This document shows positions 3,270 to 44,170 of a stretch of DNA of 64,000 nucleotides, one piece after another. The notes below the pieces were generated by a model. That model saw nothing but the letters and a program-made list of their open reading frames with translations, was not told the DNA's origin and ran no database searches. Location: positions 1,341-65,340 of the IMG/VR virus record IMGVR_UViG_2925677529_000001, one strand, 5' to 3'. A program made the position numbers and the translations under genes. Each line of letters starts with the position of its first letter. The first letter of the stretch is position 1. Origin of the DNA: a virus (Duplodnaviria > Caudoviricetes).

Positions 3270-3568
3270 CAGCGGCCACCACTGAACAGGCCACCGAGGT
3301 TCGGCAGCCGGCTCACGAACTGCTGAAGCTGCGCGACCGCAGTACTGAGCCCGTCGAGCCCGGGGATCTTGGCACCAAGCTGATCAGCCAATGCCTTGAT
3401 GACCTTGTCATCCCACTTCCACGGCGTCGCGCCAGCGAAACGCTCGAGCAACCAAGTGCTGGCGGACTCGACATCTTCGCGGTTCGCTGGGTCCTTCACA
3501 TACTCGACAGCACGATCGAACAGCGCTTTGGCCAGCAGCGATGCGAACACCGCGAGAAGTTTGTTCAC
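3269..3568 (-). CDS. Small amphipathic lysis accessory protein, possibly Ms6 gp1-like LysA chaperone
   Basis: First gene of the lysis operon, TGATG-coupled to lysA; amphipathic termini ending LPNLGGLFSGGR. Confidence 0.5.
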   Translation of the reverse strand: MNKLLAVFASLLAKALFDRAVEYVKDPANREDVESASTWLLERFAGATPWKWDDKVIKALADQLGAKIPGLDGLSTAVAQLQQFVSRLPNLGGLFSGGR

Positions 3569-3599
3569 GGCGCGAAAGTAGGCCCGCCGGGTGCAACGA

Positions 3600-4307
3600 C
3601 TAGGACAGCTCAACCCAGTCGAGTGTCGGCCCGAATCGACGCGGCCCCAACAGATCCTTGGACGCCATCACCACGACACCCAACGAGCGATAGCCGGAGC
3701 CTTTCGACGCGGTGCCGGTGCTGTCGTTCCATTCGCCGACTCGGCTGCCGTTGCGGCGCAACGTGTGCACGTTGCCGACGCCCTTGAGGTTGATGGTGTC
3801 GCCGGCACCGAACGTGCCACCACTGACCATGACGGTGTTGATGCTGAGGAGACGCCGGACGATCCGCAGCGTGGACGAATCCAACTGCACACCAACACCA
3901 TGGGTGAAACCACTGTTGGAGACCCGGGCGAACACCTGCGTCCTGGGCAGGTCCCCGGTGATCGACGGGCCGGATCCTTGGGAGCCGACACGGAATTCGA
4001 GTTCGTAGTCGTCCCCTGGGGCGACAGCGGCGTTGTACCGGGCATGGGAGGTCAGCAGCGGCGACGAAACCAGCCCGTCCGGCAGGGCCAGTCGGCACTG
4101 GCCGTTGACGATCCCAGCTTTGTACGTGGCCGACGGGCCGTGGTCAGTCCAGGCGGAGCCGAGGGTGGCCGCGTCGTCGCGGTCAAAAGTGTCCCGTATC
4201 CCCGACTTTGACCAGATCAGTGTGGAACCGAGGTAGAGCTTCTGGTAGTCGATGCCGCCATGCTTGAGCGCCAGGACCGGATGGGTGCCACCGAAGTTCA
4301 GGGGCAT
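3600..4307 (-). CDS. Minor tail protein (beta-sandwich/lectin-like)
   Basis: KLYLGSTLIW N-terminal motif then DTFDR beta-rich domain; tail-gene position. Confidence 0.65.
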   Translation of the reverse strand: MPLNFGGTHPVLALKHGGIDYQKLYLGSTLIWSKSGIRDTFDRDDAATLGSAWTDHGPSATYKAGIVNGQCRLALPDGLVSSPLLTSHARYNAAVAPGDDYELEFRVGSQGSGPSITGDLPRTQVFARVSNSGFTHGVGVQLDSSTLRIVRRLLSINTVMVSGGTFGAGDTINLKGVGNVHTLRRNGSRVGEWNDSTGTASKGSGYRSLGVVVMASKDLLGPRRFGPTLDWVELS

Positions 4308-4717
4308 CAGTACACCGCGTACAGCACGGTCGGGTTCGGGGTGATCGCCGCGTAGTCGGCTGCGGGGATCGGAACGAGTTCGAGGGTGATCGGGTCGCCG
4401 TCCTTGTTGCGGGCGGTGACGACACCGACACCGGCCTGGTCCGCGGTGACAGCATCGTTGTCGAGCTTGGCTGTAGTCACGGCACCATCACCAAGGTTGA
4501 CGGTCTTGACTCCGCCGGTGGCGATCTTCGGCGACGTCACAGACCCGTCGGCCAACTTCGGCTCCGTGACCGCACCGTCGGCCAGTTTCGCAGTCTTGAC
4601 AGCACCGTTGACCAGCGTTGACGGCGCAACCTCAGCGATCTCGGCGTTGACCTCCGGCCCCAGCCGCTCCCCCGCCGGTTTCGACGGGTCATAGCCCACG
4701 ATGATCTGGTCCGCCAT
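4307..4717 (-). CDS. Tail fibre-like protein with decapeptide repeats
   Basis: About six GAVTxxKLAD-type repeats; C-terminal ..NPTVLYAVY. Confidence 0.65.
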   Translation of the reverse strand: MADQIIVGYDPSKPAGERLGPEVNAEIAEVAPSTLVNGAVKTAKLADGAVTEPKLADGSVTSPKIATGGVKTVNLGDGAVTTAKLDNDAVTADQAGVGVVTARNKDGDPITLELVPIPAADYAAITPNPTVLYAVY

Positions 4718-4735
4718 ACCGCGCAGATTATGGGC

Positions 4736-5404
4736 TTAGCGTGCACCCAACGCGCGGGCCGCAGCCTTGAAATCAGTGGCCACGTCGCCCGGCTCGAACC
4801 CGGCCGGGCGGACCGTCCCCTTGCTGACCGTCTGGGTGGTGCCAGGCTCGGGCCCGTACAGCTTGTCGAACAGTTTCGTCTGTTCGTGTTGGTCGCGGTC
4901 TTCGTTGCCGGTCTGCAGCGATTCGAGCCACAGCTTCTCAGCCTCATCGAGGATGTCGTGCATGGAGGTGAGGGTGGTCATGGGGTTGGGGTGGCCGTCG
5001 CCGCGCAGCCGGGTCCGCAGAGCGCGCCAGTGATCGGCGGCCGCGTAAGCGAGGGTCATGACAGCAACGTAGGGGCGTTCGGTGCCCCACGTGGCCAGGG
5101 CGCGGGCCAACAGTCCGATGGTGTTGTCGGGCATCGTTTCGTCCATCATGGCGGCCAGGATGCGTTCGTGGTCGTCGGGTGCGATGTGGTTGCGCACGAA
5201 CAGCGTCGCGTGATGCTGCTGGGCCTGCGGATCGGTAGCAGGGTTGACCGACAAAGCGAGGTGCGGGATCGCATCCGGACGTGGCCGGCGCGCCAGGACG
5301 GTCCCCACCTCTGGCACTGCGAGCGGCGTGTAGTCCCCCGCCCACGGTGCGGCCAGCTCGGCGTCACCGAGCATGTCACCGAAACTTGGTGGTGGTTCCC
5401 ACAT
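4736..5404 (-). CDS. Tail assembly chaperone paralog, fused G+T-like form
   Basis: N-half aligns by eye with 22022..22609 (LFVRNHIAPDDHERILAAMMD vs LFVAKHLSPETYERVMYRMVD). Confidence 0.6.
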   Translation of the reverse strand: MWEPPPSFGDMLGDAELAAPWAGDYTPLAVPEVGTVLARRPRPDAIPHLALSVNPATDPQAQQHHATLFVRNHIAPDDHERILAAMMDETMPDNTIGLLARALATWGTERPYVAVMTLAYAAADHWRALRTRLRGDGHPNPMTTLTSMHDILDEAEKLWLESLQTGNEDRDQHEQTKLFDKLYGPEPGTTQTVSKGTVRPAGFEPGDVATDFKAAARALGAR

Positions 5405-6699
5405 CAGATCGTGACAGCCCCGGGAACCAGGATGGCCAGCGCGATCGACCGGCCAGACCACTGCGGCACCTTGGACGGGGTGAACCCGCGGTCGAGTGTG
5501 GGGCGCGGCGGATCAGCCAGCACCGCCGACGCCATCGTGGAGCCGTCCGCGGGGGAATCCTCGATCAGGGTCATGTCGTCGGGTGCGGTCTGGTTGATCG
5601 GCGCCTGCAACGGTGTGTGCGCCACGTACGAGGCGCAGATCAGGAGTTGGCCGTCGCGGTCGATGCTGGGGCACATGTTGTTTCCGGTGTCGAGCTCCCA
5701 AAACCGTTTGGTGAGCGTCGACGCGACATGCCACTCGGTGAGGTCGGGTGAGGCGTCGCGCAACGTGATCAGGTGCACGATCTCCTCGGCCAGGGCGCCG
5801 GTGGTGAAGTGATACGACGCCGGTTCACTGGCTGATGCGATGCGCCAGTAGACCTTCATGTGGACGTCGCCGATACCCAGCAGGCCGTCGTTGCGGACAT
5901 GCCACAACGTCCATCCCGTCTCGGAGGGCGTGATGTCGGAAGCCAGACCAATGTTGTTGGCCACGACCGCGACCATGACGTCACCGGCCGCTGTGCCGGC
6001 GGGCACGTCGACGTCGGTGGGGAACGTGTTGTTGATGGAGTGCTCCACACCGACAACAGTGGGGGTTGGGCGTTCGGCCGGCGCGGCGAACGCGGGCACC
6101 CCGTACAGGTCGACGCGGGTGTCACCGGAGATGAACAGGGATTCGGTGTTTTGGTCGCCGCCGTCGATGATGGTGGCTTCCCAGTAGTCGCTCTTGAAGC
6201 GGATTTGTACGCGGCCGAAGAAGGTTTCCCCCGGTGCGATGGTTTCCCAGCCGACGGAGTGCGGCATGAACGGTGCGGTGATGGAGTTTTGTCGTACTTC
6301 GTGCACCGCGAAACCGGTTCCGACTGCGAGGATTCCGCCTTTGCCGGTGTCCATGCCGCATCCGAACCGGGACACTTCGATCATGTCGAACGACGACGGC
6401 GGCGTTGGGGTGCTGAGCTTGTCGGCTCCGTGAAGCATCTGCAGGTAGCCACGGCTGCGGGCTTGCAGGGTGACTTGGGAGCCGCCCCGGGTGACCATGC
6501 CGTACACCTGTTGCGGGACCGGGGTGTTGTTCGTCCACTGCACGTCGACGGTGTGCACCAACTCGTCTTTGTTGCTGCCACCGCTGGTGTCGTAGGTGCG
6601 GGACACCGATGGTGCTGTCTTGGTGGCCAAGATCCGGTATTGGGTCCATGGCTGCGGTTCGATCGCCTCGTCGAGGATCAGGAAGTGGTCGTTGCTCAC
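5404..6699 (-). CDS. Minor tail protein (paralog family) with C-terminal beta domain
   Basis: WTNNTPVPQ..VTRGG motif shared with the two upstream genes; GTGA overlap. Confidence 0.75.
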   Translation of the reverse strand: MSNDHFLILDEAIEPQPWTQYRILATKTAPSVSRTYDTSGGSNKDELVHTVDVQWTNNTPVPQQVYGMVTRGGSQVTLQARSRGYLQMLHGADKLSTPTPPSSFDMIEVSRFGCGMDTGKGGILAVGTGFAVHEVRQNSITAPFMPHSVGWETIAPGETFFGRVQIRFKSDYWEATIIDGGDQNTESLFISGDTRVDLYGVPAFAAPAERPTPTVVGVEHSINNTFPTDVDVPAGTAAGDVMVAVVANNIGLASDITPSETGWTLWHVRNDGLLGIGDVHMKVYWRIASASEPASYHFTTGALAEEIVHLITLRDASPDLTEWHVASTLTKRFWELDTGNNMCPSIDRDGQLLICASYVAHTPLQAPINQTAPDDMTLIEDSPADGSTMASAVLADPPRPTLDRGFTPSKVPQWSGRSIALAILVPGAVTI

Positions 6700-7936: not shown

Positions 7937-7963
7937 GCCGTGGAGGTTACGGAGCCCGGGTGC

Positions 7964-8859: not shown

Positions 8860-8895
8860 GACGCACATCATTCGGCCCTGGGGTGAAACGGCGAC

Positions 8896-10173
8896 TCACG
8901 CGGCGTTGATGAGCACAACGGCACCGGACTTTGCGCCGGAATGGCTGCCGGAGAAGTTGATTCCAGAGCCGGTATCGAGGCCCCAGCCCCCGACGGTGCC
9001 CCAGGCGACGAACGTGATGAAGCCGTAGTTGGCGGCCTGGTTGGGGCTGAGTGTGCCGAAGTTGCTGCTGCCGCCGACGTACCCGCAGATGGCGGCCTGG
9101 CCTTCGTTCGGGGCGATGTTCTGGTTGATGTTGCCGCTGGAGGTGTCAGCGATGACCGATCCGATAGATCCGGCGTTCCTGAATGACATGGCTGTTGCGG
9201 CGCTTGCGGTCCCAGCTTGGTTGACTGAGACGGTGTTGGAGCCTTGCGGAATGCTGTTGCTGACCAGCACGAAGATGCTGATGTAGCTGGTGTAGGGGAA
9301 CACGCCGCCGTCGGCGACCGGGCCGTACACCCGGGGGATGGTGACACCGCCGTAGGTGCATGTCGGCGCGGAGTTGGTGGTGTTGGTGAAGACGACGGCG
9401 AGGCAGTTGCCGTCCGTGGGGTGCGCCCACGCGCGTGAGCTGGCGCCACCGGACCCGCCGAGTGTGAAGGCATCGAACAGTACGAGGCTCTTGGATGAGC
9501 CTGCCGCGTTGGTGAGGGCAGCTTGGAGCTGGGCGGCCAGGGTGCCGTGTTGCTGTTGGCCACCGCTGCCTGAGAACAGTGCTGCGCGGAGCGCGACGGC
9601 CAACTGGCCGAGTTGCTTTTGACCGCCAGATCCGGCGAACGTGGCGGCCCGGAGCGTCGCTGCGAGCTGGCCGGACTGGGATTGGTTGCCGGTGAGCGCG
9701 GCTGTGGCGGCCCGCATTTGGGCGGCCATGGCACCGGTCTGAGTCTGGCTTCCGGTGAGGTTGATCGCGGCGGGGCGGAGGGTGGCACCGATCTGCCCGA
9801 CCTGCTGCTGGCCCCCGATGAGTGCGGCGCGGGCCGGTTGGAGGGTGGCAGTGAGGGGGCCGCTGGTGATGTTCGTTCCGGCGAAGGTCGCGGGCCGGAG
9901 TATCCCTGCCAGCTCACCGCGCTGCTGGTGCGCACCGATTCCGGCGAACGTGGCTGCGCGCAACACAGCGGCGAGCTGGCCGAGTTGTTCCTGGCTTCCG
10001 AGCAGTGCGGCGCGGGCCGGTTGCAGCTCGACGGCCAGCAGTGCCTCGACGGCCTCAAACCAGCCGACGGGCGGTTCAACAGCCTCAGGGACGACGAGGT
10101 CGCCGAACCATCCCCGGGGGATCGTGCGGGCGAGCAGAGCGAGTTCGTCGGACCACGACATCGTGGCGGTCAT
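8896..10173 (-). CDS. Minor tail/fibre protein with about nine 19-21-aa repeats and a C-terminal beta domain
   Basis: G(Q/E/P)LAAxLRxAxxAGxGxQxQx repeats; start may be 10161. Confidence 0.7.
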   Translation of the reverse strand: MTATMSWSDELALLARTIPRGWFGDLVVPEAVEPPVGWFEAVEALLAVELQPARAALLGSQEQLGQLAAVLRAATFAGIGAHQQRGELAGILRPATFAGTNITSGPLTATLQPARAALIGGQQQVGQIGATLRPAAINLTGSQTQTGAMAAQMRAATAALTGNQSQSGQLAATLRAATFAGSGGQKQLGQLAVALRAALFSGSGGQQQHGTLAAQLQAALTNAAGSSKSLVLFDAFTLGGSGGASSRAWAHPTDGNCLAVVFTNTTNSAPTCTYGGVTIPRVYGPVADGGVFPYTSYISIFVLVSNSIPQGSNTVSVNQAGTASAATAMSFRNAGSIGSVIADTSSGNINQNIAPNEGQAAICGYVGGSSNFGTLSPNQAANYGFITFVAWGTVGGWGLDTGSGINFSGSHSGAKSGAVVLINAA

Positions 10174-10241
10174 TCCACTGGCCAGCCGTGCAGAAATCGT
10201 TCATCCTGCTAACAAAGTCCGTTAGCTGATGGCATCATCTG

Positions 10242-21993: not shown

Positions 21994-22021
21994 CGCGTCA
22001 AACTAGCTAGGCGGGGTGCGA

Positions 22022-22609: not shown

Positions 22610-22638
22610 AGGCCGCATGTTGCTCAGCCAGGGTGCAC

Positions 22639-24686: not shown

Positions 24687-24725
24687 GCGGGCCACGGTAG
24701 CCAGCAAGGGTGCTCACAAATGACG

Positions 24726-26450: not shown

Positions 26451-26471
26451 ACAGTAAGAGGGCAGGGTGCA
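26451..26471 (-). promoter_or_regulatory. Late promoter of the major tail gene (TGCACC-CTGCCCTCT-TACTGT)
   Basis: Differs at 2 of 21 nt from the capsid promoter at 30306..30326. Confidence 0.7.
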
Positions 26472-27064: not shown

Positions 27065-27067
27065 GGC

Positions 27068-27487: not shown

Positions 27488-27490
27488 GGT

Positions 27491-28336: not shown

Positions 28337-28358
28337 GTGCGGTCCTCTCTACCGGGAA

Positions 28359-28403: not shown

Positions 28404-28430
28404 AGTCCATTGCGATTCGCCGGTCAGCCG

Positions 28431-30218: not shown

Positions 30219-30305
30219 TTCGTGCTCCTCGTTTTCTGAGTGAAACTCTCGGTCTGTCGATCGCTCCCCGGCACATAGCGCATGGCAGGAACTCTCTGGC
30301 GCAGG

Positions 30306-30326
30306 ACGGTAAGAGGGCACGGTGCA
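30306..30326 (-). promoter_or_regulatory. Late promoter of the capsid gene (TGCACC-GTGCCCTCT-TACCGT)
   Basis: Member of the repeated CACC-N9-TAnnnT family; sits just downstream of a terminator. Confidence 0.7.
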
Positions 30327-30340
30327 GCACCCGGGTACGC

Positions 30341-30372
30341 GAAAGGCCCCGGACGTGAACCCGGGGCCTTTC
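30341..30372. terminator. Intrinsic terminator, symmetrical
   Basis: GAAAGGCCCCGG-N8-CCGGGGCCTTTC perfect inverted repeat. Confidence 0.85.
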
Positions 30373-30394
30373 TGCGCGATTTCTGCGTGTGCGG

Positions 30395-30580
30395 CTATGC
30401 GCCGCTGGTGAGTTGCAAGATGGTGCCGCCACCATTACGGCGCTGTTCGGCGACGGCCTCGATCTTCGTCAGGAACACCTTCACCTCACCGGTGGGTGAC
30501 GTGTACCGGTAGCCGGCGATCGTCGCACCGCTGCTCGTCTTACCGCCGGCACGGTTCCGGCCTCTACATGCGCAGCCCAC
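30395..30580 (-). CDS. Small basic protein preceding the capsid gene (MGCAC..GGGTI)
   Basis: Leaderless late promoter 7 nt upstream; own terminator. Confidence 0.75.
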   Translation of the reverse strand: MGCACRGRNRAGGKTSSGATIAGYRYTSPTGEVKVFLTKIEAVAEQRRNGGGTILQLTSGA

Positions 30581-30654
30581 GGGTAGGACGGTACGAACCG
30601 CGAGTGCATCAGGACGTATTGCAATCACTCGGACGTCAGGTAGAATCGAGCCTG

Positions 30655-30693
30655 CGGGACGTCCCCCCGTTTCACGGGGGATTGGCGTCCCGC
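30655..30693 (-). terminator. Hairpin immediately after the nuclease-domain stop
   Basis: GCGGGACG..TCCCCCGTG-AA-ACGGGGGGA-CGTCCCGC imperfect stem. Confidence 0.55.
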
Positions 30694-30695
30694 TA

Positions 30696-31292
30696 CTATT
30701 TTTGCAGGTCAATTGCGTTCAGTTGTCCCTGCGCCATCACCCACAGACCCTGCAGCCGATATTTTTCACGGCCAACGTTGAACTGCTCTAACGCTACGCG
30801 GATCTCATCTGTGAGTGGCGAGTCCTCAATATCAATGACGAACCGGTCTTTCACGACACCGTGCTTCGCTGCCCGCGAGGCGGCATCCACAATCCGGCCA
30901 TGAATCGATTGCGGGCGTGGTACGACGGTCTTCTGCTCGACCTCAACATTCCCGTTGGACCGCCAGATGAAATCGTTGGTCGGCTTAAACCCTGCAGTCG
31001 CTATCCACTCGGGGGTTTCCCCCACATCCAAGAACCGCTCAACGAACCGCACCTCGCCCGGCTCCAGCCGTTCGCCATTGAACTCCACCGGTAGCGCGCC
31101 CTGCCGCGCCTTCCAGTAAGCCCGGTAGACGTCTCGATCTGATGAGTTCGGCTCAGGCCCCAGCTCAGCTGGTCCGCCGGTGAACCGTAGCCGGTGACCG
31201 ATGCGCTTCTTACCACCGCCACCAACCGAAATCCACCTGCCGTCGGGGCCGCGCTTCTGCCTCGGGTTAAAGGCGAAGTCGGCGGTCAGGCT
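30696..31292 (-). CDS. CdiA-CT-like PD-(D/E)XK nuclease domain, probably expressed as a -1 frameshift extension of the MuF/protease protein
   Basis: Frame open from the slippery site to 30696; KPTNDF..EVEQK..FVIDI; linker FNPRQKRGPDGRWI. Confidence 0.65.
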   Translation of the reverse strand, partial: SLTADFAFNPRQKRGPDGRWISVGGGGKKRIGHRLRFTGGPAELGPEPNSSDRDVYRAYWKARQGALPVEFNGERLEPGEVRFVERFLDVGETPEWIATAGFKPTNDFIWRSNGNVEVEQKTVVPRPQSIHGRIVDAASRAAKHGVVKDRFVIDIEDSPLTDEIRVALEQFNVGREKYRLQGLWVMAQGQLNAIDLQK

Positions 31293-35695: not shown

Positions 35696-35723
35696 GAGTC
35701 AGGACGGTAACCAAGCTGGGTGT

Positions 35724-36131
35724 TTACCCCTGCTCAATGTCCAACTCATCAGCCGACAACGGAGCCACCAGGCCAACGACATACGAGCAGGCGAGCGCCA
35801 CCGGCACCACCGCCCACCACGACCAGACCAACACGTGCACCACCAGCACGGCGCCGGCCAGCGCGACCCACCAGCCGACACACCACGGGCAACCCATGAA
35901 CTCGAGCGCGATGTTCCACCGGGTCTGACGGCGCCGATGCAACTCACCGACCGTCCACTGGTCCGCCGCCTCAGCCTCTTCCGCCGCGGCCAATGCGGAT
36001 CCCGCACGGCGCGCCACGAACAGGCGGGCCCAGTCCAGCACGGTGTCGTAGTTGATCAGCCGAGTCACCCGCGCGACGGCGAGCACGTAGAAGACAAGAA
36101 TCAGGACGGTCAATCCGAGGTTGTGGTTCAT
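35724..36131 (-). CDS. DUF1360-like membrane protein
   Basis: RVTRLINYD, CPWCVGWW, TM helices. Confidence 0.75.
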   Translation of the reverse strand: MNHNLGLTVLILVFYVLAVARVTRLINYDTVLDWARLFVARRAGSALAAAEEAEAADQWTVGELHRRRQTRWNIALEFMGCPWCVGWWVALAGAVLVVHVLVWSWWAVVPVALACSYVVGLVAPLSADELDIEQG

Positions 36132-36176
36132 AGCGCGAGACGGTATGACGTTGGGGTGAAGAAGGATTCGGGCCGA

Positions 36177-36725
36177 TCAGGCAGAAATCTCTAGTTCCTG
36201 GGGAACTAATGCGCTGGTAGCGGGCGCTTTTCGGTTGGCTTGCCATTCTCGGCGGCATTCCCGGCACCGTTCCTTACCGCCGTGGCGGTACGTGTTGTAC
36301 GGCAACATCAGATGCCGGCCCTTGGAACAGAACCGCACACTACCGCCCACAGCGAGCGTATCGATCAACTGGTCCAGTTGCATTCGCAGCCGATCGTTTT
36401 CGCCCTGGGCCTCCGCGAGCTCCCGTCGGGTCAGCGAGTGCTGGCAGCGTTCAGCCGACAGTTCCTCACTGATCTCGCCGGTCTGCTGCTGCGCGATCTT
36501 GCACACCTGCGTCATGTCCTCGGCGCGGATCGACATCACCAGCCGGCGTGAGCATTTGGTGCGTTCGGCGATCTCCTCAGCCGTCATGCCCGCCAAGGTC
36601 AGTCCGGCAACGAGCCACGCCCGGTCCGGGTCGGACAGCTCGGTCATCGCGCGGGAAGCCTTCGGCATCGACAGGACCGCCGCGACCATCTGCGCGTCGG
36701 GCTCCCACCGGTCCGGCGTCGTCAA
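36177..36725 (-). CDS. HTH + coiled coil + Zn-ribbon DNA-binding protein
   Basis: GMTAEEIAERTKCSRRLV; CSKGRH..NTY..RCREC. Confidence 0.7.
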   Translation of the reverse strand: MTTPDRWEPDAQMVAAVLSMPKASRAMTELSDPDRAWLVAGLTLAGMTAEEIAERTKCSRRLVMSIRAEDMTQVCKIAQQQTGEISEELSAERCQHSLTRRELAEAQGENDRLRMQLDQLIDTLAVGGSVRFCSKGRHLMLPYNTYRHGGKERCRECRREWQANRKAPATSALVPQELEISA

Positions 36726-36867
36726 CTCGCGGCGACCACGGTGCTCAGCAACTCCACGACCGCCAAGATAGAACCCGAAACCGGCGCCCTATCCGGATAA
36801 CCCGGCGGTTGTCACGGTTCGACAGCTAAACCGTTACGGTAGCTGTGAACTGGCGCACTTCTTGGGG

Positions 36868-37218
36868 TCACCAACCATCGAGCTTGCCTCTCTGGTCCAG
36901 GCAGTAGGACCCCACGGCCCCGCCCACCTGTAGCAGTGCTTCGTCGATGGTTTGATTGGGGTTGGTTTTCGACAACCGAGAGGCCACCGAGAAGGGGTAG
37001 ACGCCGTTCTCGAGGTCAATGCAGATCCGCCGCGCCTGATCCAGCAGGACCTTGTCGTCCACGCCCTCCACTCCAGCATCGGACAGTCCGTCAAGGTAGG
37101 TCTGATCGATGCTGGAATGCCGTGGGGTCTGCGACCAGATCATCAGGCCGATGCCAACGACGGCGGCAACGATGCTCGCGAAGATCGTGATGCGAACCCA
37201 ATCAGGGCTGTTCTTCAT
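36868..37218 (-). CDS. DUF732-like membrane-anchored protein (moron)
   Basis: TM helix, DQTYLDGL..ARRIC..AVGSYC; own TATGGT -10 6 nt before the ATG. Confidence 0.7.
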   Translation of the reverse strand: MKNSPDWVRITIFASIVAAVVGIGLMIWSQTPRHSSIDQTYLDGLSDAGVEGVDDKVLLDQARRICIDLENGVYPFSVASRLSKTNPNQTIDEALLQVGGAVGSYCLDQRGKLDGW

Positions 37219-37295
37219 CGGCAGACCATAACTGAGACAGCACTCCCATATTCGGGTAATCGCCTCTTGCGTGAGGCAACTCGCCGACAGTGTTC

Positions 37296-37550
37296 CTACG
37301 CTCGACCCGACCGGGCCCAGCACTGCCCACGATCCGCCCCGGCTGCCAACCGGATCGACGCCGCCAACTCCGGCCCGAGCGCCGCCAGCATCGCGTCGAG
37401 CACACCGCGCCGCGCCAACTCATCGACCAACGCCGACACCCGACCCGCATACGCCGCTTTCGGATTCGCCACCGACATGCCGAGCGCCAGAGCCAACGCC
37501 GTGTCCGGCAGCGCGGCCAGACGATCATCCACCCGAGCTGGCGCCGTCAT
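37296..37550 (-). CDS. Hypothetical protein
   Basis: TGATG coupling to the DUF3310-like gene. Confidence 0.55.
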   Translation of the reverse strand: MTAPARVDDRLAALPDTALALALGMSVANPKAAYAGRVSALVDELARRGVLDAMLAALGPELAASIRLAAGADRGQCWARSGRA

Positions 37551-37921
37551 CAGTCCAGAACCTCGCCCAACATCGCGTTCACCGCGTCCAGCGCCCGGCC
37601 GACATCGCCGCGTTTCATCGCGTCGAAGAACACCCGCCGATCGCGATCCGTTTCATACTCCAGCACCACCGCCAACCGCCGCTCGACAGTGAAGTTCCAC
37701 GACCGCAAGAACGGCGCGTCGGCGTGCTCGATCGCATCCAGCAGATACCAGCGAGCCTTCTCAAGATCCTGGCGGCCGTTCTTCGCGTCGGCGCGCCACA
37801 CGTACTTGAACGCGTTGCCAGCATCAAACGACAAATGCCGCGTGAATGCGATGCACTCGATCCCGGACGGATGCCGGTAGTGCGGCGGATGATTCACGAA
37901 GTCGATGGTTTCCGAGGCCAT
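37550..37921 (-). CDS. DUF3310-like protein
   Basis: VNHPPHY..IECI..GNAFKYVWRA..KNG..DLEKARWYL. Confidence 0.85.
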   Translation of the reverse strand: MASETIDFVNHPPHYRHPSGIECIAFTRHLSFDAGNAFKYVWRADAKNGRQDLEKARWYLLDAIEHADAPFLRSWNFTVERRLAVVLEYETDRDRRVFFDAMKRGDVGRALDAVNAMLGEVLD

Positions 37922-37952
37922 ACGCGGGAACGTACGCCCGCATGGTGATCAG

Positions 37953-38255
37953 TCAGAACGCCTGCGGCGGCAGCTCGCCACCCGTCCAGCGCGTAATCAA
38001 CTCCAGTTGCTCAGCGTCACGGTAATCCAGATCGAACGGAATGAACGTCTCGATCGGCAGCCGATGCACAGGGTCGAGCGTGACTCGGCGAAGCGAACTC
38101 TCTTCCGTAGTCCACCCCGTGGCCTGCTCAAACGACCGCACCGTCTCCACGAAGTCACGCACCCGGTGAACCCGCATCCACATCTGCCGCTCCGGATGCA
38201 ATACAACGTCACCCTCGACGAGATCGGTAACCGCCACCTGCCCCGTGTTCTCCAC
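37953..38255 (-). CDS. Hypothetical protein
   Basis: Fills the gap after TerL on the coding strand. Confidence 0.55.
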   Translation of the reverse strand: MENTGQVAVTDLVEGDVVLHPERQMWMRVHRVRDFVETVRSFEQATGWTTEESSLRRVTLDPVHRLPIETFIPFDLDYRDAEQLELITRWTGGELPPQAF

Positions 38256-38286
38256 ACCGCGAGCATCCCACGAGCTGGCCGCAGAA

Positions 38287-39846
38287 TCAGCCGACCTGCT
38301 GACGCCACCACTCCATCGACGTCACATTCCCGCCGCCACCGCCAGGCGCAACCCCGCCCCCCGGCGAATCCAACGGGCTGGCCAAATCCCACTCCAACCC
38401 CGCCGAATGCACACACTCGTCGTGACCAATCACCAACGCCGCCAAGTTGTCCGGCTGGTGCTGGCCGGCCTGCCACGCGATCGCCTTCGCCTCGAAATCC
38501 GGGAAGTACCCGGCTAGGCGGCAGGTGCCCACCTCGAGCGCCTGCAGCAGCGCCGAGCTCCTGGCGATCGCATCCCCCACCCGCGGTCGGCCCTTCGGTG
38601 GCCACGACGTCACCCGAATCGGATGCAACACAGTGCCCTTGGTCGTCAGCTCCCGAACCCGGGCCCGCTCCAACGCCTCATTGACCACCCGCGTGTACGT
38701 CTCCCGAGCCGCGAAACCCTCCACCGTGATCTGGCTGGCCCCTACGTCGAGCGCCAACTGAACAGCCTCCCGCGCCCATTCGTCCGACGTCATCGGCGCG
38801 CTCTTGTCCGCGATCATCGCCACCACACCGCCCGACGTCATCGACGTGGCCACCAGACCACACGCGTCGCCCTTACCCGAATCCGACGGGTCCACCGCCA
38901 CCACCGTGAACACCGGCGACGACGGCGCCACCGGCAACCGCCAAGACCCCAACCAATCCGACTTCACCAAACCACCCGCCGGCGTCGACGGCACACCCAT
39001 GTACATCGCGTACCAAGCCCGCTCCCCCGACGTCCGCCGCATCGCCCCGAAATGTTCCGGCGTATAACCCAACGCCGACACCATCGCCACACCCGGCGGC
39101 CGACGCAACGCATCCGCAATCCCCGACTCGCTGACCGCCGGAATGTTCGTGTGCCGCCACCGCTCCGGCTCCTGCGCCAACAACGCCCCCGCCAAATCCT
39201 CCTCATGCCACCTGGTCATCAACACCAAGCACGAACCACCCGGATGGATACGCGTCGCCAACGTCGACCGGTACTCGTTCAGAATCCGCTTCCGATGCGC
39301 AGCCGAATCCGCCTCCGAAGCGTCCTTCAGCACATCGTCGATGATCATCAAATCCGCGCCATGCCCAGTGATACCCGAGCTGATGCCCGCGGCCAGCACG
39401 CCGCCCTGATGCCCCTGCACATTCCACCGACCGACTGCGGTCTTATCCGGCGCGATGCTGTACCCGAGAAACTCGCCGTGCTCACGGATGATCGCCCGCA
39501 CCTTCCGAGAATGCGTCTGCGCCAGATCATCCCCATGCGAGACGACGACGATCCGCATATCCGGGCCCTTCATCGGAAACGCAGGATCAGGCATCAGCGC
39601 CCACACCGGCGTCCAGATCGCGAACAACTCCGACTTACCCGTCCGCGGTGGCGTGTTCACGACGTCCCGCTGGTCCGGCTCGGTCACCCACCGCACAGCG
39701 ACGTCGGACAGCAGGCGAATCGTCGGCGTCACACGGAACTTCGGATCCAGCAGCCGCGCCAGCTCCGCCGGCGACGACGGGCGACGTGTGGCGCGCATGG
39801 CCTTGACGTGGCGAATGGCCGCGAGGGTCCGCACCGGGTCTGACAT
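38287..39846 (-). CDS. terL: Terminase large subunit
   Basis: PPRTGKS Walker A, MIIDD Walker B, MTRWHEEDLAG, VAVDPS nuclease motif. Confidence 0.93.
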   Translation of the reverse strand: MSDPVRTLAAIRHVKAMRATRRPSSPAELARLLDPKFRVTPTIRLLSDVAVRWVTEPDQRDVVNTPPRTGKSELFAIWTPVWALMPDPAFPMKGPDMRIVVVSHGDDLAQTHSRKVRAIIREHGEFLGYSIAPDKTAVGRWNVQGHQGGVLAAGISSGITGHGADLMIIDDVLKDASEADSAAHRKRILNEYRSTLATRIHPGGSCLVLMTRWHEEDLAGALLAQEPERWRHTNIPAVSESGIADALRRPPGVAMVSALGYTPEHFGAMRRTSGERAWYAMYMGVPSTPAGGLVKSDWLGSWRLPVAPSSPVFTVVAVDPSDSGKGDACGLVATSMTSGGVVAMIADKSAPMTSDEWAREAVQLALDVGASQITVEGFAARETYTRVVNEALERARVRELTTKGTVLHPIRVTSWPPKGRPRVGDAIARSSALLQALEVGTCRLAGYFPDFEAKAIAWQAGQHQPDNLAALVIGHDECVHSAGLEWDLASPLDSPGGGVAPGGGGGNVTSMEWWRQQVG

Positions 39847-39885
39847 GCGGCGAGAGTGTCAGTTGATGGTGCGAACAATAGTGTC

Positions 39886-39914
39886 TTGCACTTATCGAAT
39901 AAGTGCCCTACACT
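39886..39914 (+). promoter_or_regulatory. SigA-type leaderless promoter with palindromic operator for the TA operon
   Basis: TTGCAC-17-TACACT-7-ATG; GCACTTAT-CGA-ATAAGTGC at 39888..39906. Confidence 0.8.
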
Positions 39915-39921
39915 TTAGGTT

Positions 39922-40254
39922 ATGGCGATCGACATCCAACCCACCGGCTGGCAGCACAGCATCACCGCCACCGAAATCTTCGCCATCATCGCCTACCCCC
40001 TCTTCCGCTACGCCATCACCACCCCCGGCTTCGAGCACCTCGCCACCTTCATGTTCGTCGGCCGCATCAACAACGAAACCCCCATCGAGGTCGCCGCCAA
40101 CGACGTCGACGGCCAGACCTGGGCCGTCTTCCACGCCATGCTCCTCACCACCCGCGTCGCCAACGAAGTGCTTGAGGTCAGCCAAGGCGCAAAGGACCTC
40201 CGCAACGACGTTGCCGCCAAGCAACGTCCCTTCATCGGACCGCAATACACCTGA
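39922..40254 (+). CDS. Putative type II toxin (BrnT/RelE-like fold)
   Basis: HSI..EI..FVG..PIEV..VFHAM pattern; precedes an RHH protein. Confidence 0.6.
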   Translation: MAIDIQPTGWQHSITATEIFAIIAYPLFRYAITTPGFEHLATFMFVGRINNETPIEVAANDVDGQTWAVFHAMLLTTRVANEVLEVSQGAKDLRNDVAAKQRPFIGPQYT

Positions 40255-40266
40255 AAGGAATCCGCC

Positions 40267-40683
40267 ATGGCCAAGAATGAACCCGTCGACTACGCCGCCC
40301 TCAGCCGCGCCGTCGAATCCGGCGACTACGTCGTCAGTGGCCCCCTCGAAGACGGGGCAACCCTCCGCATGGGCCGCCCCGCCAAGGGCGCCCAGTCGGC
40401 TGGCAAAACCCCCAACCTCACCGTCCGCGTGGACCCGAGCATTCGCGGCATCCTGCAGGCCATCGCCGACGACAAGGGCGTCAAAGAATCCGAGATCGTC
40501 CGCCAGGCCGTCCTCGAATTCATCGAATGCCACCCCGTCGGGGAACTCGCACCGGCGGTCTACACCGTCGAGGACAACGCCGGCCACGTCCTCAGCATCC
40601 ACCGCACCGAGCAGGGCGCCGAAACGGCACTGTCAGTAATCGCCGGGGCTATCGGAATCAACAAGCAGCTGATCGAACGCTGA
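40267..40683 (+). CDS. Ribbon-helix-helix antitoxin with C-terminal extension
   Basis: GRP..LTVRVD..SEIVRQAVLEF. Confidence 0.7.
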   Translation: MAKNEPVDYAALSRAVESGDYVVSGPLEDGATLRMGRPAKGAQSAGKTPNLTVRVDPSIRGILQAIADDKGVKESEIVRQAVLEFIECHPVGELAPAVYTVEDNAGHVLSIHRTEQGAETALSVIAGAIGINKQLIER

Positions 40684-40684
40684 C

Positions 40685-40927
40685 TCACAACTCAACAACC
40701 CGGGCGGGCCCGACCAGCACATCGCACTCAGCGGTTTGCGTCGGGCCCGTCACTGTTCCGCCGCACCAGCACGTCCAGGTCGTGTGCCCACCACGATGGG
40801 AACCGCACGCCCGATGCCCCACGATCATCCGACCCGGCACGAACCGGTGTCCGGCCGGGCAATGCGTCGGCGCCAACCGCTTCCAGCCACCCGACGTCGA
40901 GCGCACAAGATCCCCAACCTTGGCCAC
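40685..40927 (-). CDS. Small Cys/His Zn-binding protein
   Basis: CPAGH..C..GGHTTWTCWCG..C; leaderless promoter. Confidence 0.65.
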   Translation of the reverse strand: MAKVGDLVRSTSGGWKRLAPTHCPAGHRFVPGRMIVGHRACGSHRGGHTTWTCWCGGTVTGPTQTAECDVLVGPARVVEL

Positions 40928-40981
40928 ACCACCAACGGTAAAACCGGGAACCGACCAACCGCCGGCCAGCGTCCAACCATC

Positions 40982-41161
40982 ATGCGAACCATCCGGATGA
41001 TCGACGCCGAACTCCGCGCCCTGGCCACCTACCGCGCCGCGTGCGCCGCCGACGGCAACCCCGTCCGAACCACTACCGCAGTGGACCGACTACTCGATGA
41101 CAGACACCTCGCGTGCCAGCCCGATTCAGTGCCGCCCAATGGCGCGAGCAATCGCCTCTAG
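40982..41161 (+). CDS. Small hypothetical protein (MRTIRMIDAELR..DRLLDDR)
   Basis: Divergent from the Zn-binding gene; recurrent mycobacterial small-protein pattern. Confidence 0.45.
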   Translation: MRTIRMIDAELRALATYRAACAADGNPVRTTTAVDRLLDDRHLACQPDSVPPNGASNRL

Positions 41162-42960: not shown

Positions 42961-42973
42961 CAGCGGCTCCATA

Positions 42974-43113
42974 TCGTCTAAATAGGTTCTAGACCAGACT
43001 AGTCCAGTGTCAAACAATTCGCCAACCACCTTTGTTGGACACTGATTGCGCTGGTCACGCCCAACGTTTCGACAATCCGCAACAGTTCACCACGGGTACA
43101 CCCCAGTTAGACA
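42974..43113. promoter_or_regulatory. Putative three-subsite res site
   Basis: GTCTAAATAGGTTCTAGAC; GTGTCAAACAA-N-TTGTTGGACAC; GGGTACACCCCAGTTAGACA. Confidence 0.6.
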
Positions 43114-43225
43114 GCCCTGGCTACGCCCGCTCCGCCTTTCGGCGGTGGCGGCGTCGGCGGCAACGGGCGCGGCCGAGTGTTGACGCCCGGCCGGTACCCG
43201 CCTCCACGTGGCGGCATCCAGCCCA

Positions 43226-43579
43226 TCAGGACGCCCCGTCCTCGTCGTCGTCGAACGCGGCCAGCGCCCGCTCGATCCACGACGGCACCGCTTCCACCAC
43301 CTCGACGCCCTGAGCGGCCCGGGACACTGCCAGCCACTCCGCCAGCTCATCGACCGGGATGCCATCGAGCCCCAACACCTGGCGGGCCACCGACACGTGC
43401 AGATCCCACAGCGGGTCACCCTCGCCGGCCACCCTGCCGAACAGCTCGCGGCACTCGGCCTGGACTGCGACGTCGAGCTGCGCGGTGTCCACCCGGCCGG
43501 TAGCGATGTCCTCCGCCACCGACATGGCTGCATCCACGCCGGCCTTCTTGGCGGCCTTCACCTGGTCGGCGGTGGTCAT
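43226..43579 (-). CDS. Hypothetical protein coupled to TerS
   Basis: CRELFG.V...DPLW.LH...ARQVL..DELAEWLAV; ATGA overlap. Confidence 0.65.
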   Translation of the reverse strand: MTTADQVKAAKKAGVDAAMSVAEDIATGRVDTAQLDVAVQAECRELFGRVAGEGDPLWDLHVSVARQVLGLDGIPVDELAEWLAVSRAAQGVEVVEAVPSWIERALAAFDDDEDGAS

Positions 43580-44046
43580 CGTTCAAGCTCCTCGGGTAGC
43601 GGCACAACCTCGGCGTCGATCGCGGCCTGCAGCTTGGCGCGGGTGTCGGTGATCATCTCCACCACGGTCTGAGTCACCTGGACGTCAACGACCTGTGGGA
43701 CAGCGACGTACAGCCCTTCGAGCTTGGCGCGTTTGTCCAGACCGTCGAGGAGCACCTTGCCGAGCTCGGCGACGTCGCGGTGCTTGCCGGCGTCGTGGGC
43801 TTCGTCGAGGCTGTCGCGGACGGTGCTGATGACTTCGACCATGACCTGACCGACGGCGCGGCGCATGGTGTCGATGTCGTCGGGCGGGTTCTTCTCGAGG
43901 AATGTCCGGACGGCCTTGAACGCGGAGTGTCGAGATTTGAACCCGACCTCGTCGGCGATCTCCTGCCATGTGCGCCCGCGGACCCGCAGGCGCCAGGCGT
44001 GTTCGGCGCGGGCTCTGGTTGTGGCTCTGTCGCCGCTGGGTGCCAT
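43576..44046 (-). CDS. Putative terminase small subunit
   Basis: N-terminal HTH (GRTWQEIADEVGF), C-terminal KRAKLEGL; late promoter. Confidence 0.6.
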   Translation of the reverse strand: MAPSGDRATTRARAEHAWRLRVRGRTWQEIADEVGFKSRHSAFKAVRTFLEKNPPDDIDTMRRAVGQVMVEVISTVRDSLDEAHDAGKHRDVAELGKVLLDGLDKRAKLEGLYVAVPQVVDVQVTQTVVEMITDTRAKLQAAIDAEVVPLPEELER

Positions 44047-44170
44047 GTTGCGCATTTTCTGTTGGTGGGGTGCGGGTGGTGTGGACTGCGGTCCGGTCTC
44101 GTCTTGTTCATTTTGGGGGCTGCTGGGTGAGTTACAGGGGTGTTTTTTGCCGCCTGGTGTCCACGGAGAG

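What the first reader, a model, noticed from the sequence alone, without database searches (positions are those of the whole stretch)
3566..44074. About 15 late promoters share a CACC-N9-(-10) architecture and are mostly leaderless
Seen on the minus strand as hexamer / N9 / -10 / spacer to start: 44046 CGCACC/GAAAAT/7; 39846 CGCACC/CACTCT/6; 37921 ATCACC/TACGTT/7; 36131 TTCACC/TACCGT/8; 35695 AACACC/TACCGT/8; 30580 TGCACT/TACCGT/7; 24686 AGCACC/TACCGT/7; 22609 TGCACC/CAACAT/7; 21993 CGCACC/TAGTTT/6; 8859 TTCACC/AATGAT/7; 7936 AGCACC/TAACCT/7; 4717 TGCACG/TAATCT/7; 3568 TGCACC/TACTTT/6. Leadered copies sit at 30306-30326 and 26451-26471, and a weak one at 10172-10192. Spacing is invariant, and I saw the motif only from TerS leftward, not before early genes or morons. 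Established: mycobacterial PafBC redirects SigA to a -26 element (TGTCGG-N10-TAnnnT). Inference: a phage-encoded activator does a similar sigma adaptation at about -25 across a distributed late regulon. Candidates are WhiB (46274), the HTH-Zn protein (36177) or another early protein.
Basis: partly seen in the sequence, partly recalled or inferred. Interest (0 to 1): 0.82.

Follow-up and report, generated by a model that had tools for sequence, protein, structure and literature searches.

The report
Phage late promoters with -26 element
A mycobacterial prophage and many related phages carry about sixteen copies of a two-part promoter signal, placed so that most late genes would be transcribed without a leader, which suggests an unidentified phage factor redirects the host RNA polymerase.

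Summary
CACC-N9-TANNNT occurs 12 times in the window against 1.6 expected, 11 of them on the late-gene strand. An unbiased scan of 4-mers and spacings returns only tGCACCc at N9. The 9-nt spacing is invariant. The -10 lies 6-8 nt before start codons, the same geometry as about 500 leaderless host genes, and these starts lack Shine-Dalgarno pairing. The host genome shows no enrichment.

The motif recurs at orthologous genes, with diverged spacers, in Dori, Mao1, an M. abscessus prophage, Taptic, cluster B3 Athena, Gordonia phage Shatter and further prophages. It is absent from four phages used as controls.

Best reading: these are hybrid late promoters with no -35, a SigA-type -10 and a phage-specific element at about -26, mostly giving leaderless mRNAs and needing a phage factor. 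This is inferred; no transcription start data exist. WhiB is disfavoured as that factor. The HTH-zinc-ribbon protein (36177-36725) is the only DNA-binding candidate that co-occurs with the motif. I found no published description.

The parts
45840..45858 (-). Strict tGCACC-N9-TACCGT copy, leadered. The expected start of transcription is near 45833. A leader of about 36 nt with AGGAG precedes the GTG at 45797 of the HTH_17 gene.
   Evidence: a similar copy lies before Dori gp80
44054..44072 (-). The -10 is a variant.
   Evidence: the same variant (nAAAAT) is conserved before the orthologues in Dori (58790) and prophiT49-1
39853..39871 (-). CACC-N9-CACTCT, 6 nt before ATG 39846 (large terminase). 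The -10 is weak and the site is specific to this window, downstream of two plus-strand genes.
   Evidence: no counterpart in Dori or Mao1, where the terminase gene abuts the upstream gene
37929..37947 (-). Strict copy, 7 nt before ATG 37921 (DUF3310 protein).
   Evidence: orthologous copy in prophiT49-1 at 12529
36140..36158 (-). Strict copy, 8 nt before ATG 36131 (phrog_781 protein, similar to Dori gp6).
   Evidence: orthologous copies in Dori 3248, Mao1 3643 and T49-1 13644
35704..35722 (-). Strict copy, 8 nt before GTG 35695 (portal). The stop codon of the upstream gene abuts CACC.
   Evidence: orthologous copies in Dori, Mao1, T49-1, Taptic, Athena (to annotated start 7077) and Shatter (to annotated start 5303)
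30588..30606 (-). CACT-N9-TACCGT, 7 nt before GTG 30580 (61-aa phrog_2069 protein). It follows an inserted ORF and hairpins.
   Evidence: seen in this window only
30306..30324 (-). Strict leadered copy before the major capsid gene. The leader is about 81 nt and the gene starts at GTG 30218 after GAGGAG.
   Evidence: orthologous copies in Dori 8403, Mao1 8799, Athena 11688 and Shatter 9732
26451..26469 (-). Strict leadered copy before the major tail gene (ATG 26384 after AGGAGG). Its 21-mer matches the capsid copy at 19 of 21 positions.
   Evidence: orthologous copies in Dori 13243, Mao1 13639, T49-1 23032, Taptic 15272, Athena 17039 and Shatter 14601
24694..24712 (-). Strict copy, 7 nt before ATG 24686 (head-tail adaptor).
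   Evidence: orthologous copies in Dori, Mao1, T49-1, Shatter (to annotated start 15599) and Oline (to annotated start 16635)
22617..22635 (-). CACC-N9-CAACAT, 7 nt before ATG 22609 (tail assembly chaperone). The -10 is weak, and an alternative ATG at 22618 lies inside the -10.
   Evidence: a similar weak copy in T49-1 at 26331
22000..22018 (-). Strict copy, 6 nt before GTG 21993 (tape measure).
   Evidence: orthologous copies in Dori 17390 (to annotated start 17415), Mao1, T49-1 and Taptic
8867..8885 (-). CACC-N9-AATGAT, 7 nt before GTG 8859 (phrog_6443 protein).
   Evidence: strict orthologous copy in Dori 29999 (to annotated start 30025)
7944..7962 (-). Strict copy, 7 nt before GTG 7936 (phrog_282 protein).
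   Evidence: orthologous copies in Dori 30852, Mao1 30768 and T49-1 37876
5066..5084 (-). Strict copy inside the 4736-5461 ORF, 6 nt before an in-frame ATG at 5059. It may be an internal promoter or a coincidence kept by coding constraint.
   Evidence: the Dori counterpart at 33739 has lost the last T of the -10
4725..4743 (-). CACG-N9-TAATCT, 7 nt before ATG 4717 (tail-fibre-like protein).
   Evidence: the CACG variant is conserved in Dori 34092 and T49-1 41122
3575..3593 (-). Strict copy, 6 nt before GTG 3568 (99-aa protein just before lysin A).
   Evidence: orthologous copies in Dori 35238 and Mao1 35154
36177..36725 (-). Candidate activator. 182 aa with an N-terminal sigma-region-4/LuxR-like HTH, a 56-residue helix and a C-terminal zinc ribbon. 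It has its own -10 without CACC.
46274..46609 (-). Disfavoured by its distribution among phages.
45615..45797 (-). HTH_17 (excisionase/MerR-like) gene of 60 aa, downstream of the 45858 copy. It is a member of the motif set and a minor candidate regulator.
43576..44046 (-). gp83-like protein of 156 aa (phrog_645, labelled 'RNase E' in records) with an N-terminal HTH. It may be a small terminase or a regulator.

Best explanation
The sites are late promoters of a hybrid type. They have no -35 hexamer. They have a SigA-type -10 (TAnnnT, here mostly TACCGT) and a phage-specific element, tGCACCc, exactly 9 nt upstream of the -10, at about -28 to -23. At 13 genes the -10 lies 6-8 nt before ATG/GTG, so transcription would begin on the start codon and give a leaderless mRNA that needs no Shine-Dalgarno sequence. 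Three further copies (before the capsid, major tail and HTH_17 genes) have leaders with a Shine-Dalgarno sequence. One more copy (5066-5084) lies inside a gene and is uncertain.

Inferred: host RNA polymerase with SigA reads the -10, and a phage-made protein bound at the -26 position supplies the contact that a -35 would give. This would resemble PafBC 'sigma adaptation' or T4 MotA/AsiA. It would keep the roughly 16 promoters silent in the lysogen and switch them on together late.

The most likely factor is the HTH-zinc-ribbon protein (36177-36725), with odds of about one in three. Shown here: the sequence pattern, its statistics, its conservation, its geometry and the absence of Shine-Dalgarno pairing. 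Not shown here: transcription starts, timing, or any protein-DNA or protein-polymerase contact.
For: 1. Non-random and strand-specific: 12 matches against 1.61 expected, 11 of 12 on the gene strand. It is the only outlier among 5376 word-and-spacing combinations. The spacing is N9 only.

2. Promoter geometry calibrated on the host. In the rest of the genome, TANNNT lies 6, 7 or 8 nt before first-in-frame starts of long ORFs 294, 124 and 80 times. At other distances the count is 3-26, and a control word is flat. The phage sites use the same 6-8 nt window.

3. Shine-Dalgarno pairing. The 13 motif starts pair weakly with the anti-Shine-Dalgarno sequence (median -1.5 kcal/mol). Twenty-seven other starts in the region have a median of -6.1. 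Mann-Whitney p = 4e-5. The leadered copies precede GAGGAG or AGGAGG.

4. No conserved -35. Positions upstream of the element carry little information. The core columns of that matrix are fixed by the way the sites were selected.

5. Specific to the phage. Among 498 host leaderless promoters CACC at N9 occurs 5 times against 5.1 expected. The same test recovers TGTC at N12, the geometry recalled for the PafBC/RecA-NDp motif.

6. Conservation with diverged spacers at orthologous genes. Gene strand / opposite strand counts: Dori 12/0, Mao1 10/0, prophiT49-1 7/0, Taptic 7/0, Athena 7/0, Shatter 7/1. Six further prophage loci give 10/1 in 119 kb against 1.25 expected per strand, p = 8e-7. In Dori, 6 of 9 predicted leaderless starts equal the annotated start. 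The other 3 lie 9-18 nt downstream in frame.

7. Temporal logic. In Athena the opposite-strand (replication-gene) blocks, which I take to be early, carry 15 canonical TTGACA-N16-18-TANNNT promoters, while the late strand carries the CACC type.

8. Candidate factor. The HTH-zinc protein is present in 8 of 8 motif phages and 0 of 4 controls. In Athena it lies downstream of a canonical promoter at 60138. In the window, Mao1, Dori and T49-1 it has its own -10 without CACC. The model has a sigma-4/LuxR-like HTH.
Against: - No RNA data: no start site, no timing and no dependence on a phage protein has been measured.
- In cluster B1 Oline the leaderless layout is kept at 7 late genes, but the 4-mer at N9 is degenerate (CAAC, CACG, CACC, CGCG, CATC, CCGC, CATC). 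The element may therefore be dispensable, or its reader may be tolerant.
- Five of the 13 leaderless sites have a -10 that departs from TAnnnT (GAAAAT, CACTCT, CAACAT, AATGAT) or an element that departs from CACC. As a class, one-mismatch sites are only about twofold above background.
- The link between the HTH-zinc protein and the motif is confounded. All motif phages share one structural module. Among Mycobacterium phage records the portal and the HTH-zinc protein give the same count, 496.
- The structure search gave no match with E <= 0.001.
- The recognition helix does not co-vary with the element in a simple way. Athena lacks an arginine that is otherwise conserved, yet keeps CACC.
- A long coiled-coil suggests a dimer, but the element is asymmetric.
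- The spacing to the start codon peaks at 7 nt in the phage and at 6 nt in the host (3 of 13 sites at 6 nt against a host share of 0.59, p = 0.009). This is unexplained.
Confidence: 0.6

Rival explanations
1. These are ordinary SigA promoters with only a -10. The CACC element is an intrinsic contact for host RNA polymerase or a host factor that raises promoter strength, and no phage protein is needed.
For: Promoters with only a -10 and leaderless genes are common in this host: about 500 by the test. Oline keeps the layout with a degenerate element.
Against: Host leaderless promoters show no enrichment of CACC at N9: 5 against 5.1 expected in 498. Constitutive SigA promoters before lysis and virion genes would be active in a lysogen (inference). 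The element is kept across phages of Mycobacterium, Gordonia and Rhodococcus while the spacers diverge.
Confidence: 0.15
2. CACC is the site of a negative regulator, such as the immunity repressor or a timing repressor acting like the stoperators of cluster A phages. That regulator would hold constitutive -10 promoters off.
For: The sites are asymmetric, biased to one orientation and intergenic, as recalled for stoperators. The prophage must silence these genes.
Against: The same element marks late genes in Athena and Shatter, whose records list no integrase or immunity repressor. The strictly fixed 9-nt distance to the -10 fits an element that is read together with the -10. A bound protein at -26 would, however, also be well placed to block the polymerase.
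Confidence: 0.1
3. A phage-encoded sigma-like specificity factor reads both elements and replaces SigA.
For: The -10 interior (TACCGT) differs from the host preference. The HTH-zinc protein gives a weak match to region 4 of ECF sigma factors (E = 0.002, below the curated cut-off).
Against: No sigma factor or RNA polymerase family was found in the 46 window proteins (44 phage-strand, 2 plus-strand) scanned against Pfam. T, A and T of the -10 are at the positions SigA reads. A 9-nt gap is far shorter than in any two-element sigma promoter I can recall.
Confidence: 0.08
4. The motif acts on RNA or has another DNA role, such as a processing site, a translation signal like the start-associated sequences of cluster K, or a methylase or packaging site.
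For: It lies just upstream of start codons, as start-associated sequences do (recalled). The phage encodes a C5 DNA methylase.
Against: It holds no Shine-Dalgarno-like core. Its 3' half and its distance to the start codon match the host's leaderless promoter signature exactly. A methylase site would not be tied to TANNNT at one spacing or to one strand.
Confidence: 0.04

Closest known systems
PafBC-dependent promoters of mycobacteria ('sigma adaptation', Sci Adv 2021, PMC8635444; abstract and passages read)
   Same: Both lack a -35, have a canonical SigA -10 and carry a specific element at -23 to -28. Many are leaderless in this host: TGTC at N12 is the top signal among host leaderless promoters. 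The phage element occupies the same place, offset by 1 nt.
   Different: The sequence differs: tGCACCc against TGTCGG (the latter recalled; the TGTC part is seen). No WYL-domain or PafB/C-like protein was found among the phage proteins scanned. The regulon is viral and late, not a DNA-damage response.
Phage T4 middle promoters (MotA box at -30 plus sigma-70 -10, with AsiA remodelling of sigma region 4); recalled, and mentioned as a related phage strategy in PMC8635444
   Same: A phage-specified upstream element replaces the -35 while the host primary sigma still reads the -10. It acts as a temporal switch.
   Different: The element is at about -26, not -30. No MotA or AsiA family hit was found. 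Most of these promoters are leaderless and are scattered inside the late operon.
Leaderless SigA promoters of mycobacteria (TANNNT 6-8 nt before the start codon)
   Same: The -10 pattern, the distance to the start codon and the lack of a Shine-Dalgarno sequence are the same.
   Different: The host promoters have no CACC element. The phage spacing peaks at 7 nt rather than 6, and the -10 interior differs.
Start-associated sequences of cluster K mycobacteriophages
   Same: A short conserved motif a few bases upstream of many start codons in a mycobacteriophage.
   Different: Start-associated sequences contain a Shine-Dalgarno-like core and are thought to act in translation. This motif has none and has the form of a promoter.
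Stoperators of cluster A mycobacteriophages (named in the section title seen in PMC9262239; their properties are recalled)
   Same: Many asymmetric sites, biased to one orientation, in short intergenic gaps across the genome.
   Different: Stoperators are repressor sites not tied to a -10. Here the element is locked 9 nt from a -10 and also occurs in phages with no annotated repressor.

Membership tests
Mycobacterial leaderless SigA-type promoter | A TANNNT -10 hexamer | tested here: met
   Eleven exact copies on the gene strand. Four of the 13 listed leaderless sites keep only A2 and T6.
Mycobacterial leaderless SigA-type promoter | The -10 lies 6-8 nt upstream of the start codon, as in host leaderless genes | tested here: met
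   The host peak is at 6, 7 and 8 nt with 294, 124 and 80 cases. The phage sites lie at 6, 7 or 8 nt.
Mycobacterial leaderless SigA-type promoter | No Shine-Dalgarno sequence before the start codon | tested here: met
   Median -1.5 against -6.1 kcal/mol, p = 4e-5.
Mycobacterial leaderless SigA-type promoter | The primary 5' end of the mRNA lies on the start codon | not testable with these tools
   No RNA run was listed.
PafBC-type hybrid ('-26 element') promoter | No -35 hexamer together with a canonical -10 | tested here: met
   Information content is low at the positions where a -35 would lie. No canonical TTGACA-N16-18-TANNNT was found in the window.
PafBC-type hybrid ('-26 element') promoter | A specific element at -23 to -28 | tested here: met
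   By geometry, tGCACC spans -28 to -23 with a 7-nt discriminator. This assumes the start codon is +1.
PafBC-type hybrid ('-26 element') promoter | The PafBC consensus (a TGTC-containing element) and dependence on PafBC | tested here: not met
   The element is CACC at N9, not TGTC at N12. Dependence cannot be tested here. It is not a member of the PafBC regulon but may work in the same way.
T4-type sigma appropriation (MotA/AsiA) | MotA-like and AsiA-like proteins encoded by the phage | tested here: not met
   No such Pfam family was found in the 46 window proteins scanned.
Cluster K start-associated sequence | A conserved 13-bp motif with a Shine-Dalgarno-like core just upstream of starts (recalled) | tested here: not met
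   There is no Shine-Dalgarno-like pairing at the motif sites.
Cluster A stoperator | A 13-14 bp repressor site independent of promoter elements, in temperate phages with a matching repressor (recalled) | tested here: not met
   The element is locked to a -10 at N9. It is present in Athena and Shatter, which have no annotated repressor or integrase.

The most novel reading that the evidence does not exclude
The HTH-zinc-ribbon protein (36177-36725; 523 phage records with a tblastn match) founds a new family of phage 'sigma adaptors'. Its sigma-region-4-like HTH would read tGCACCc at -26 in place of a -35 contact. It would switch host SigA polymerase onto a distributed, mostly leaderless late regulon shared by cluster B, Dori-like and Taptic-like mycobacteriophages, M. 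abscessus prophages and relatives in Gordonia and Rhodococcus.
Probability: 0.3. Interest if true: 0.85.

Novelty: new variant of a known kind. Interest (0 to 1): 0.74.

Why it matters
A 2022 review of mycobacteriophages says that few late promoters have been characterised, that they are highly active, and that they deserve study (PMC9262239, passage read). Eight of my nine literature searches looked for a description of this motif or for transcription start maps of these phages. None listed one. The ninth retrieved the PafBC papers.

If the reading holds, it gives a sequence rule for late transcription in one of the largest groups of sequenced actinophages. It would be a second, viral case of a promoter built from a -10 plus a -26 element. 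It would explain why many late genes in these phages lack ribosome-binding sites. It suggests that start codons in several records should be revisited: in Dori, 3 of 9 annotated starts fall inside the promoter. It would also offer compact, switchable promoters for mycobacterial genetics. All of this can be tested in M. smegmatis with existing phages.

Tried and rejected
- RNA evidence: no RNA holder was listed for window 30001-40000 (the first attempt was one base too long).
- PDB sequence search with the HTH-zinc profile: nothing below E = 0.07.
- Foldseek against the PDB: no match with E <= 0.001. The weak hits were LuxR/GerE-type and ECF sigma region 4 domains.
- Co-variation between the recognition helix of the HTH-zinc protein and the element (Oline against the others): inconclusive.
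- The consensus promoter and terminator scan of 21000-40999 was no better than shuffles (1 promoter against 1.8; 14 terminators against 10.3).
- The 'weak' site at 10172-10192 was rejected.
- The one-mismatch hits at 59291 and 14004 were treated as chance.
- Taptic was first fetched as a possible control but proved to share the module and the motif. TM4, Giles, Che9c (first 50 kb each) and Twister6 (first 50 kb) served as controls.
- A host regulon with the same motif was considered and rejected.
- A link to the phage C5 methylase was considered and rejected, because the spacing and strand are fixed.

Full report
**What the window is.** The window is almost entirely a prophage in a 6.38 Mb, 66% G+C Mycobacterium-type chromosome. 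About a third of its late region is roughly 76% identical in DNA to mycobacteriophages Dori, Mao1, Mask and Sejanus, and about a quarter to M. abscessus prophages such as prophiT49-1. Virion and lysis genes run on the minus strand from about 44 kb down to 0.4 kb. Early genes (antirepressor, RecE/RecT, C5 methylase, WhiB) lie on the same strand from 61 kb to 46 kb. An integrase gene lies on the plus strand at 62.5 kb.

- Every one of the 13 listed sites has the stated hexamers, the 9-nt gap and the stated 6-8 nt distance to ATG or GTG.
- Exact CACC-N9-TANNNT occurs 12 times against 1.61 expected. None of 100 shuffles reaches 12, and 11 of the 12 are on the gene strand.
On the minus strand the four best of 5376 combinations are overlapping words of tGCACCc at one register (p 6e-12 to 1e-9). 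The plus strand gives nothing comparable.
- Only the 9-nt gap occurs: 11 cases, against 0 or 1 for all other gaps from 4 to 15.
- The rest of the host genome has 1.35 exact matches per 64 kb. With a start codon 6-8 nt downstream there are 8 in the window against 23 in the other 6.3 Mb.
- One-mismatch sites are only about twofold above background as a class: 16 sites with up to one mismatch on the gene strand, 8 of them exact, against 3.9 per 64 kb per strand. I accept such sites only where they sit at a real gene start, and I rank them by conservation.
- My count is 7 exact leaderless copies at gene starts, 6 one-mismatch leaderless copies at gene starts, 3 exact leadered copies and 1 exact copy inside a gene.
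The 'weak' one at 10172-10192 does not stand.

**Why these are promoters for leaderless mRNAs.**
- I calibrated on the host. Outside the window, TANNNT lies 6, 7 or 8 nt before the first in-frame start of long, high-GC3 ORFs 294, 124 and 80 times. At other distances the count is 3-26, and a control word shows no peak. This is the signature of about 500 leaderless genes, and the phage sites use the same 6-8 nt window.
- The 13 motif-associated starts pair poorly with the anti-Shine-Dalgarno sequence (median -1.5 kcal/mol). Twenty-seven other starts in the same region have a median of -6.1 (p = 4e-5). The 'other' starts are my own calls and some may be wrong.
- The three leadered copies precede genes with clear Shine-Dalgarno sequences.
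- No -35-like conservation is seen upstream, and the window has no canonical TTGACA-N16-18-TANNNT at all.
- In several cases the stop codon of the upstream gene directly abuts the element, so the whole promoter fills a gap of 25-30 nt.

**The element belongs to the phage, not the host.** Among 498 host leaderless promoters, CACC at N9 occurs 5 times against 5.1 expected. The same analysis picks out TGTC at N12 as its top signal: 12 against 1.9, p = 8e-7. That is the geometry recalled for the PafBC/RecA-NDp motif, so the test can detect a real -26-type regulon when one exists. The PafBC paper describes promoters that lack a -35, keep a canonical -10 and carry a specific element at -23 to -28 (PMC8635444, passages read). 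Taking the start codon as +1 and a 7-nt discriminator, tGCACC spans -28 to -23. It occupies the same place, shifted by 1 nt, with a different sequence.

**Conservation.** The motif recurs on the gene strand at orthologous genes, with different spacer sequences. Gene strand / opposite strand counts:
- Dori 12/0
- Mao1 (first 50 kb) 10/0
- prophiT49-1 (50 kb) 7/0
- Taptic 7/0
- cluster B3 phage Athena 7/0
- Gordonia phage Shatter 7/1

Six further chromosomal loci found through the HTH-zinc protein (four named Mycobacterium or Mycolicibacterium genomes, one Mycobacterium metagenome-assembled genome and one Rhodococcus) give 10 on the gene strand and 1 opposite in 119 kb. The expectation is 1.25 per strand, p = 8e-7. 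One of these loci, with only a partial homologue, has none on the gene strand.

The portal, capsid, major tail, adaptor and tape-measure genes carry a copy in most of these genomes. Independent annotation agrees with the predicted starts:
- In Dori, 6 of 9 predicted leaderless starts are the annotated starts. The other 3 lie 9-18 nt downstream in frame, and the annotated codon sits inside the promoter.
- In Athena the portal start matches, and in Shatter three starts match exactly.

Four phages used as controls have 0, 0, 1 and 0 copies on the plus strand and 0, 1, 0 and 1 on the minus strand: TM4, Giles, Che9c and Gordonia phage Twister6, first 50 kb each. Twister6 has a distant portal homologue.

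Cluster B1 phage Oline is an intermediate case. Seven late genes keep the leaderless -10, but the 4-mer at N9 is degenerate.

**Early and late contrast.** In Athena the minus-strand blocks, which hold the replication genes and which I take to be early, carry 15 canonical TTGACA-type promoters. The unbiased test finds TTGACAAT at the proper distance with p down to 1e-23. The late strand carries the CACC type. This fits two promoter classes read at different times, which is the usual logic of phage development.

**Mechanism (inferred).** Promoters with only a -10 work with SigA in this host. Unregulated copies in front of lysis and virion genes would be incompatible with lysogeny. The simplest reading is that these promoters are weak alone and need a phage protein at the -26 element, as PafBC promoters need PafBC. 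A GC-rich -10 interior (TACCGT, against the host's preference) and the shift of the preferred distance to the start from 6 to 7 nt (p = 0.009) may be part of this. I cannot explain either feature. Many internal promoters follow naturally: a leaderless mRNA must begin at its start codon, so every gene without a Shine-Dalgarno sequence needs its own start of transcription.

**Which protein.**
- Athena, Oline and Shatter have no WhiB, no HTH_17 protein and no gp83-like protein by tblastn.
- TM4 and Giles have WhiB and no motif.

The HTH-zinc protein is found in all 8 motif-bearing phages and in none of the 4 controls. It has matches in 523 phage records, mostly cluster B. Its alignment shows an invariant HTH core and a C-terminal Cys/His cluster. 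The model (mean pLDDT 90) has a four-helix HTH, a 56-residue helix and a zinc ribbon. The HTH gives weak matches to ECF sigma region 4 and to LuxR/GerE domains, none of them significant.

Its gene is placed where a regulator should be. In Athena it lies about 480 nt downstream of a canonical promoter, in a small cassette on the late-gene strand flanked by opposite-strand (putatively early) blocks. In the window, Mao1, Dori and T49-1 it has its own conserved -10 followed by GTG at 7 nt, without CACC, behind a conserved dyad.

The caveat is serious. All these phages share one structural module, and the counts of portal and HTH-zinc matches among Mycobacterium phage records are equal at 496 each. 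Co-occurrence may therefore be plain co-inheritance. I put this identification at about one in three.

**Rivals.** An intrinsic host contact, a negative regulator, a phage sigma factor and an RNA-level or other signal are set out with their evidence in the Rival explanations section. None explains the fixed link to a -10, the absence from host promoters and the presence in phages with no annotated repressor as well as an activator does. None is excluded without RNA data.

**Novelty.** Eight literature searches for the motif or for start-site maps found no description of it and no start-site map for these phages. A 2022 review says few late promoters are characterised. These searches cover open-access text only. 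I saw only listings for most papers, and supplements were closed. An earlier mention in a subscription paper or in annotation notes cannot be ruled out. I class the finding as a new variant of a known kind: an activator-type or sigma-adaptation-type late promoter, in a viral, distributed and leaderless form.

Noticed in passing
window 30218-30299 (minus strand): The roughly 81-nt leader of the major capsid gene is nearly identical in prophiT49-1 and recognisably conserved in Dori and Athena. In the window and in T49-1 it holds a 22-codon upstream ORF whose TGA overlaps the GTG start of the capsid gene. Two compensating indels change the peptide but keep the frame, so the conservation looks to be at the RNA level.
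   Followed up: partly
window 36790-36850 (minus strand); Mao1 L003 about 2955-2985; Dori L001 about 2590-2620: A conserved dyad with the palindromic core ACCGT-A-ACGGT lies about 50 nt upstream of the HTH-zinc gene's own -10. It may be an operator or a hairpin that controls the candidate regulator.
   Followed up: no
window 30610-31286 (minus strand): There is an extra ORF between the protease/MuF gene and the next late gene. It resembles the C-terminal part of other phages' 'head maturation protease' records. GC-rich hairpins follow it, then the promoter copy at 30606. The arrangement looks like an insertion after which transcription restarts.
   Followed up: partly
window 39922-40683 (plus strand) and 36868-37323 (minus strand): Two plus-strand genes, one with a weak ribbon-helix-helix match, interrupt the late strand just upstream of the terminase promoter copy. 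A DUF732 gene sits inside the late operon. Both look like acquired passenger genes.
   Followed up: partly
Athena L005+L006, minus strand: There are fifteen canonical TTGACA(AT)-N-TANNNT promoters, an unusually uniform early promoter set. The unbiased test gives p down to 1e-23. Oline has a similar set of 15.
   Followed up: partly
Twister6 L016, upstream of the capsid, major tail, tape-measure and lysin A genes: A different repeat of about 22 nt (core GCTGGCCGAGGGCCGGGCG) lies 30-50 nt before four late genes. It may be another late-gene signal in a phage with a distant portal and no HTH-zinc protein.
   Followed up: no
host genome G000, 498 leaderless promoters: TGTC at 12 nt upstream of TANNNT is the top enriched word (12 against 1.9). 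This is presumably the host PafBC regulon, and many of its members appear to be leaderless.
   Followed up: no
Dori L001 3691, 14673, 35255; Mao1 L003 4087, 15069, 35171; T49-1 L004 12354: Annotated start codons fall inside or upstream of the promoter motif. The motif predicts in-frame starts 9-18 nt downstream, or 201 nt downstream for T49-1 gp48.
   Followed up: partly
window 30306-30326 and 26451-26471: The capsid and major tail promoter copies share 19 of 21 bases, including the spacer (TGCCCTCT). This hints that the spacer sequence matters at the two most highly expressed genes.
   Followed up: no
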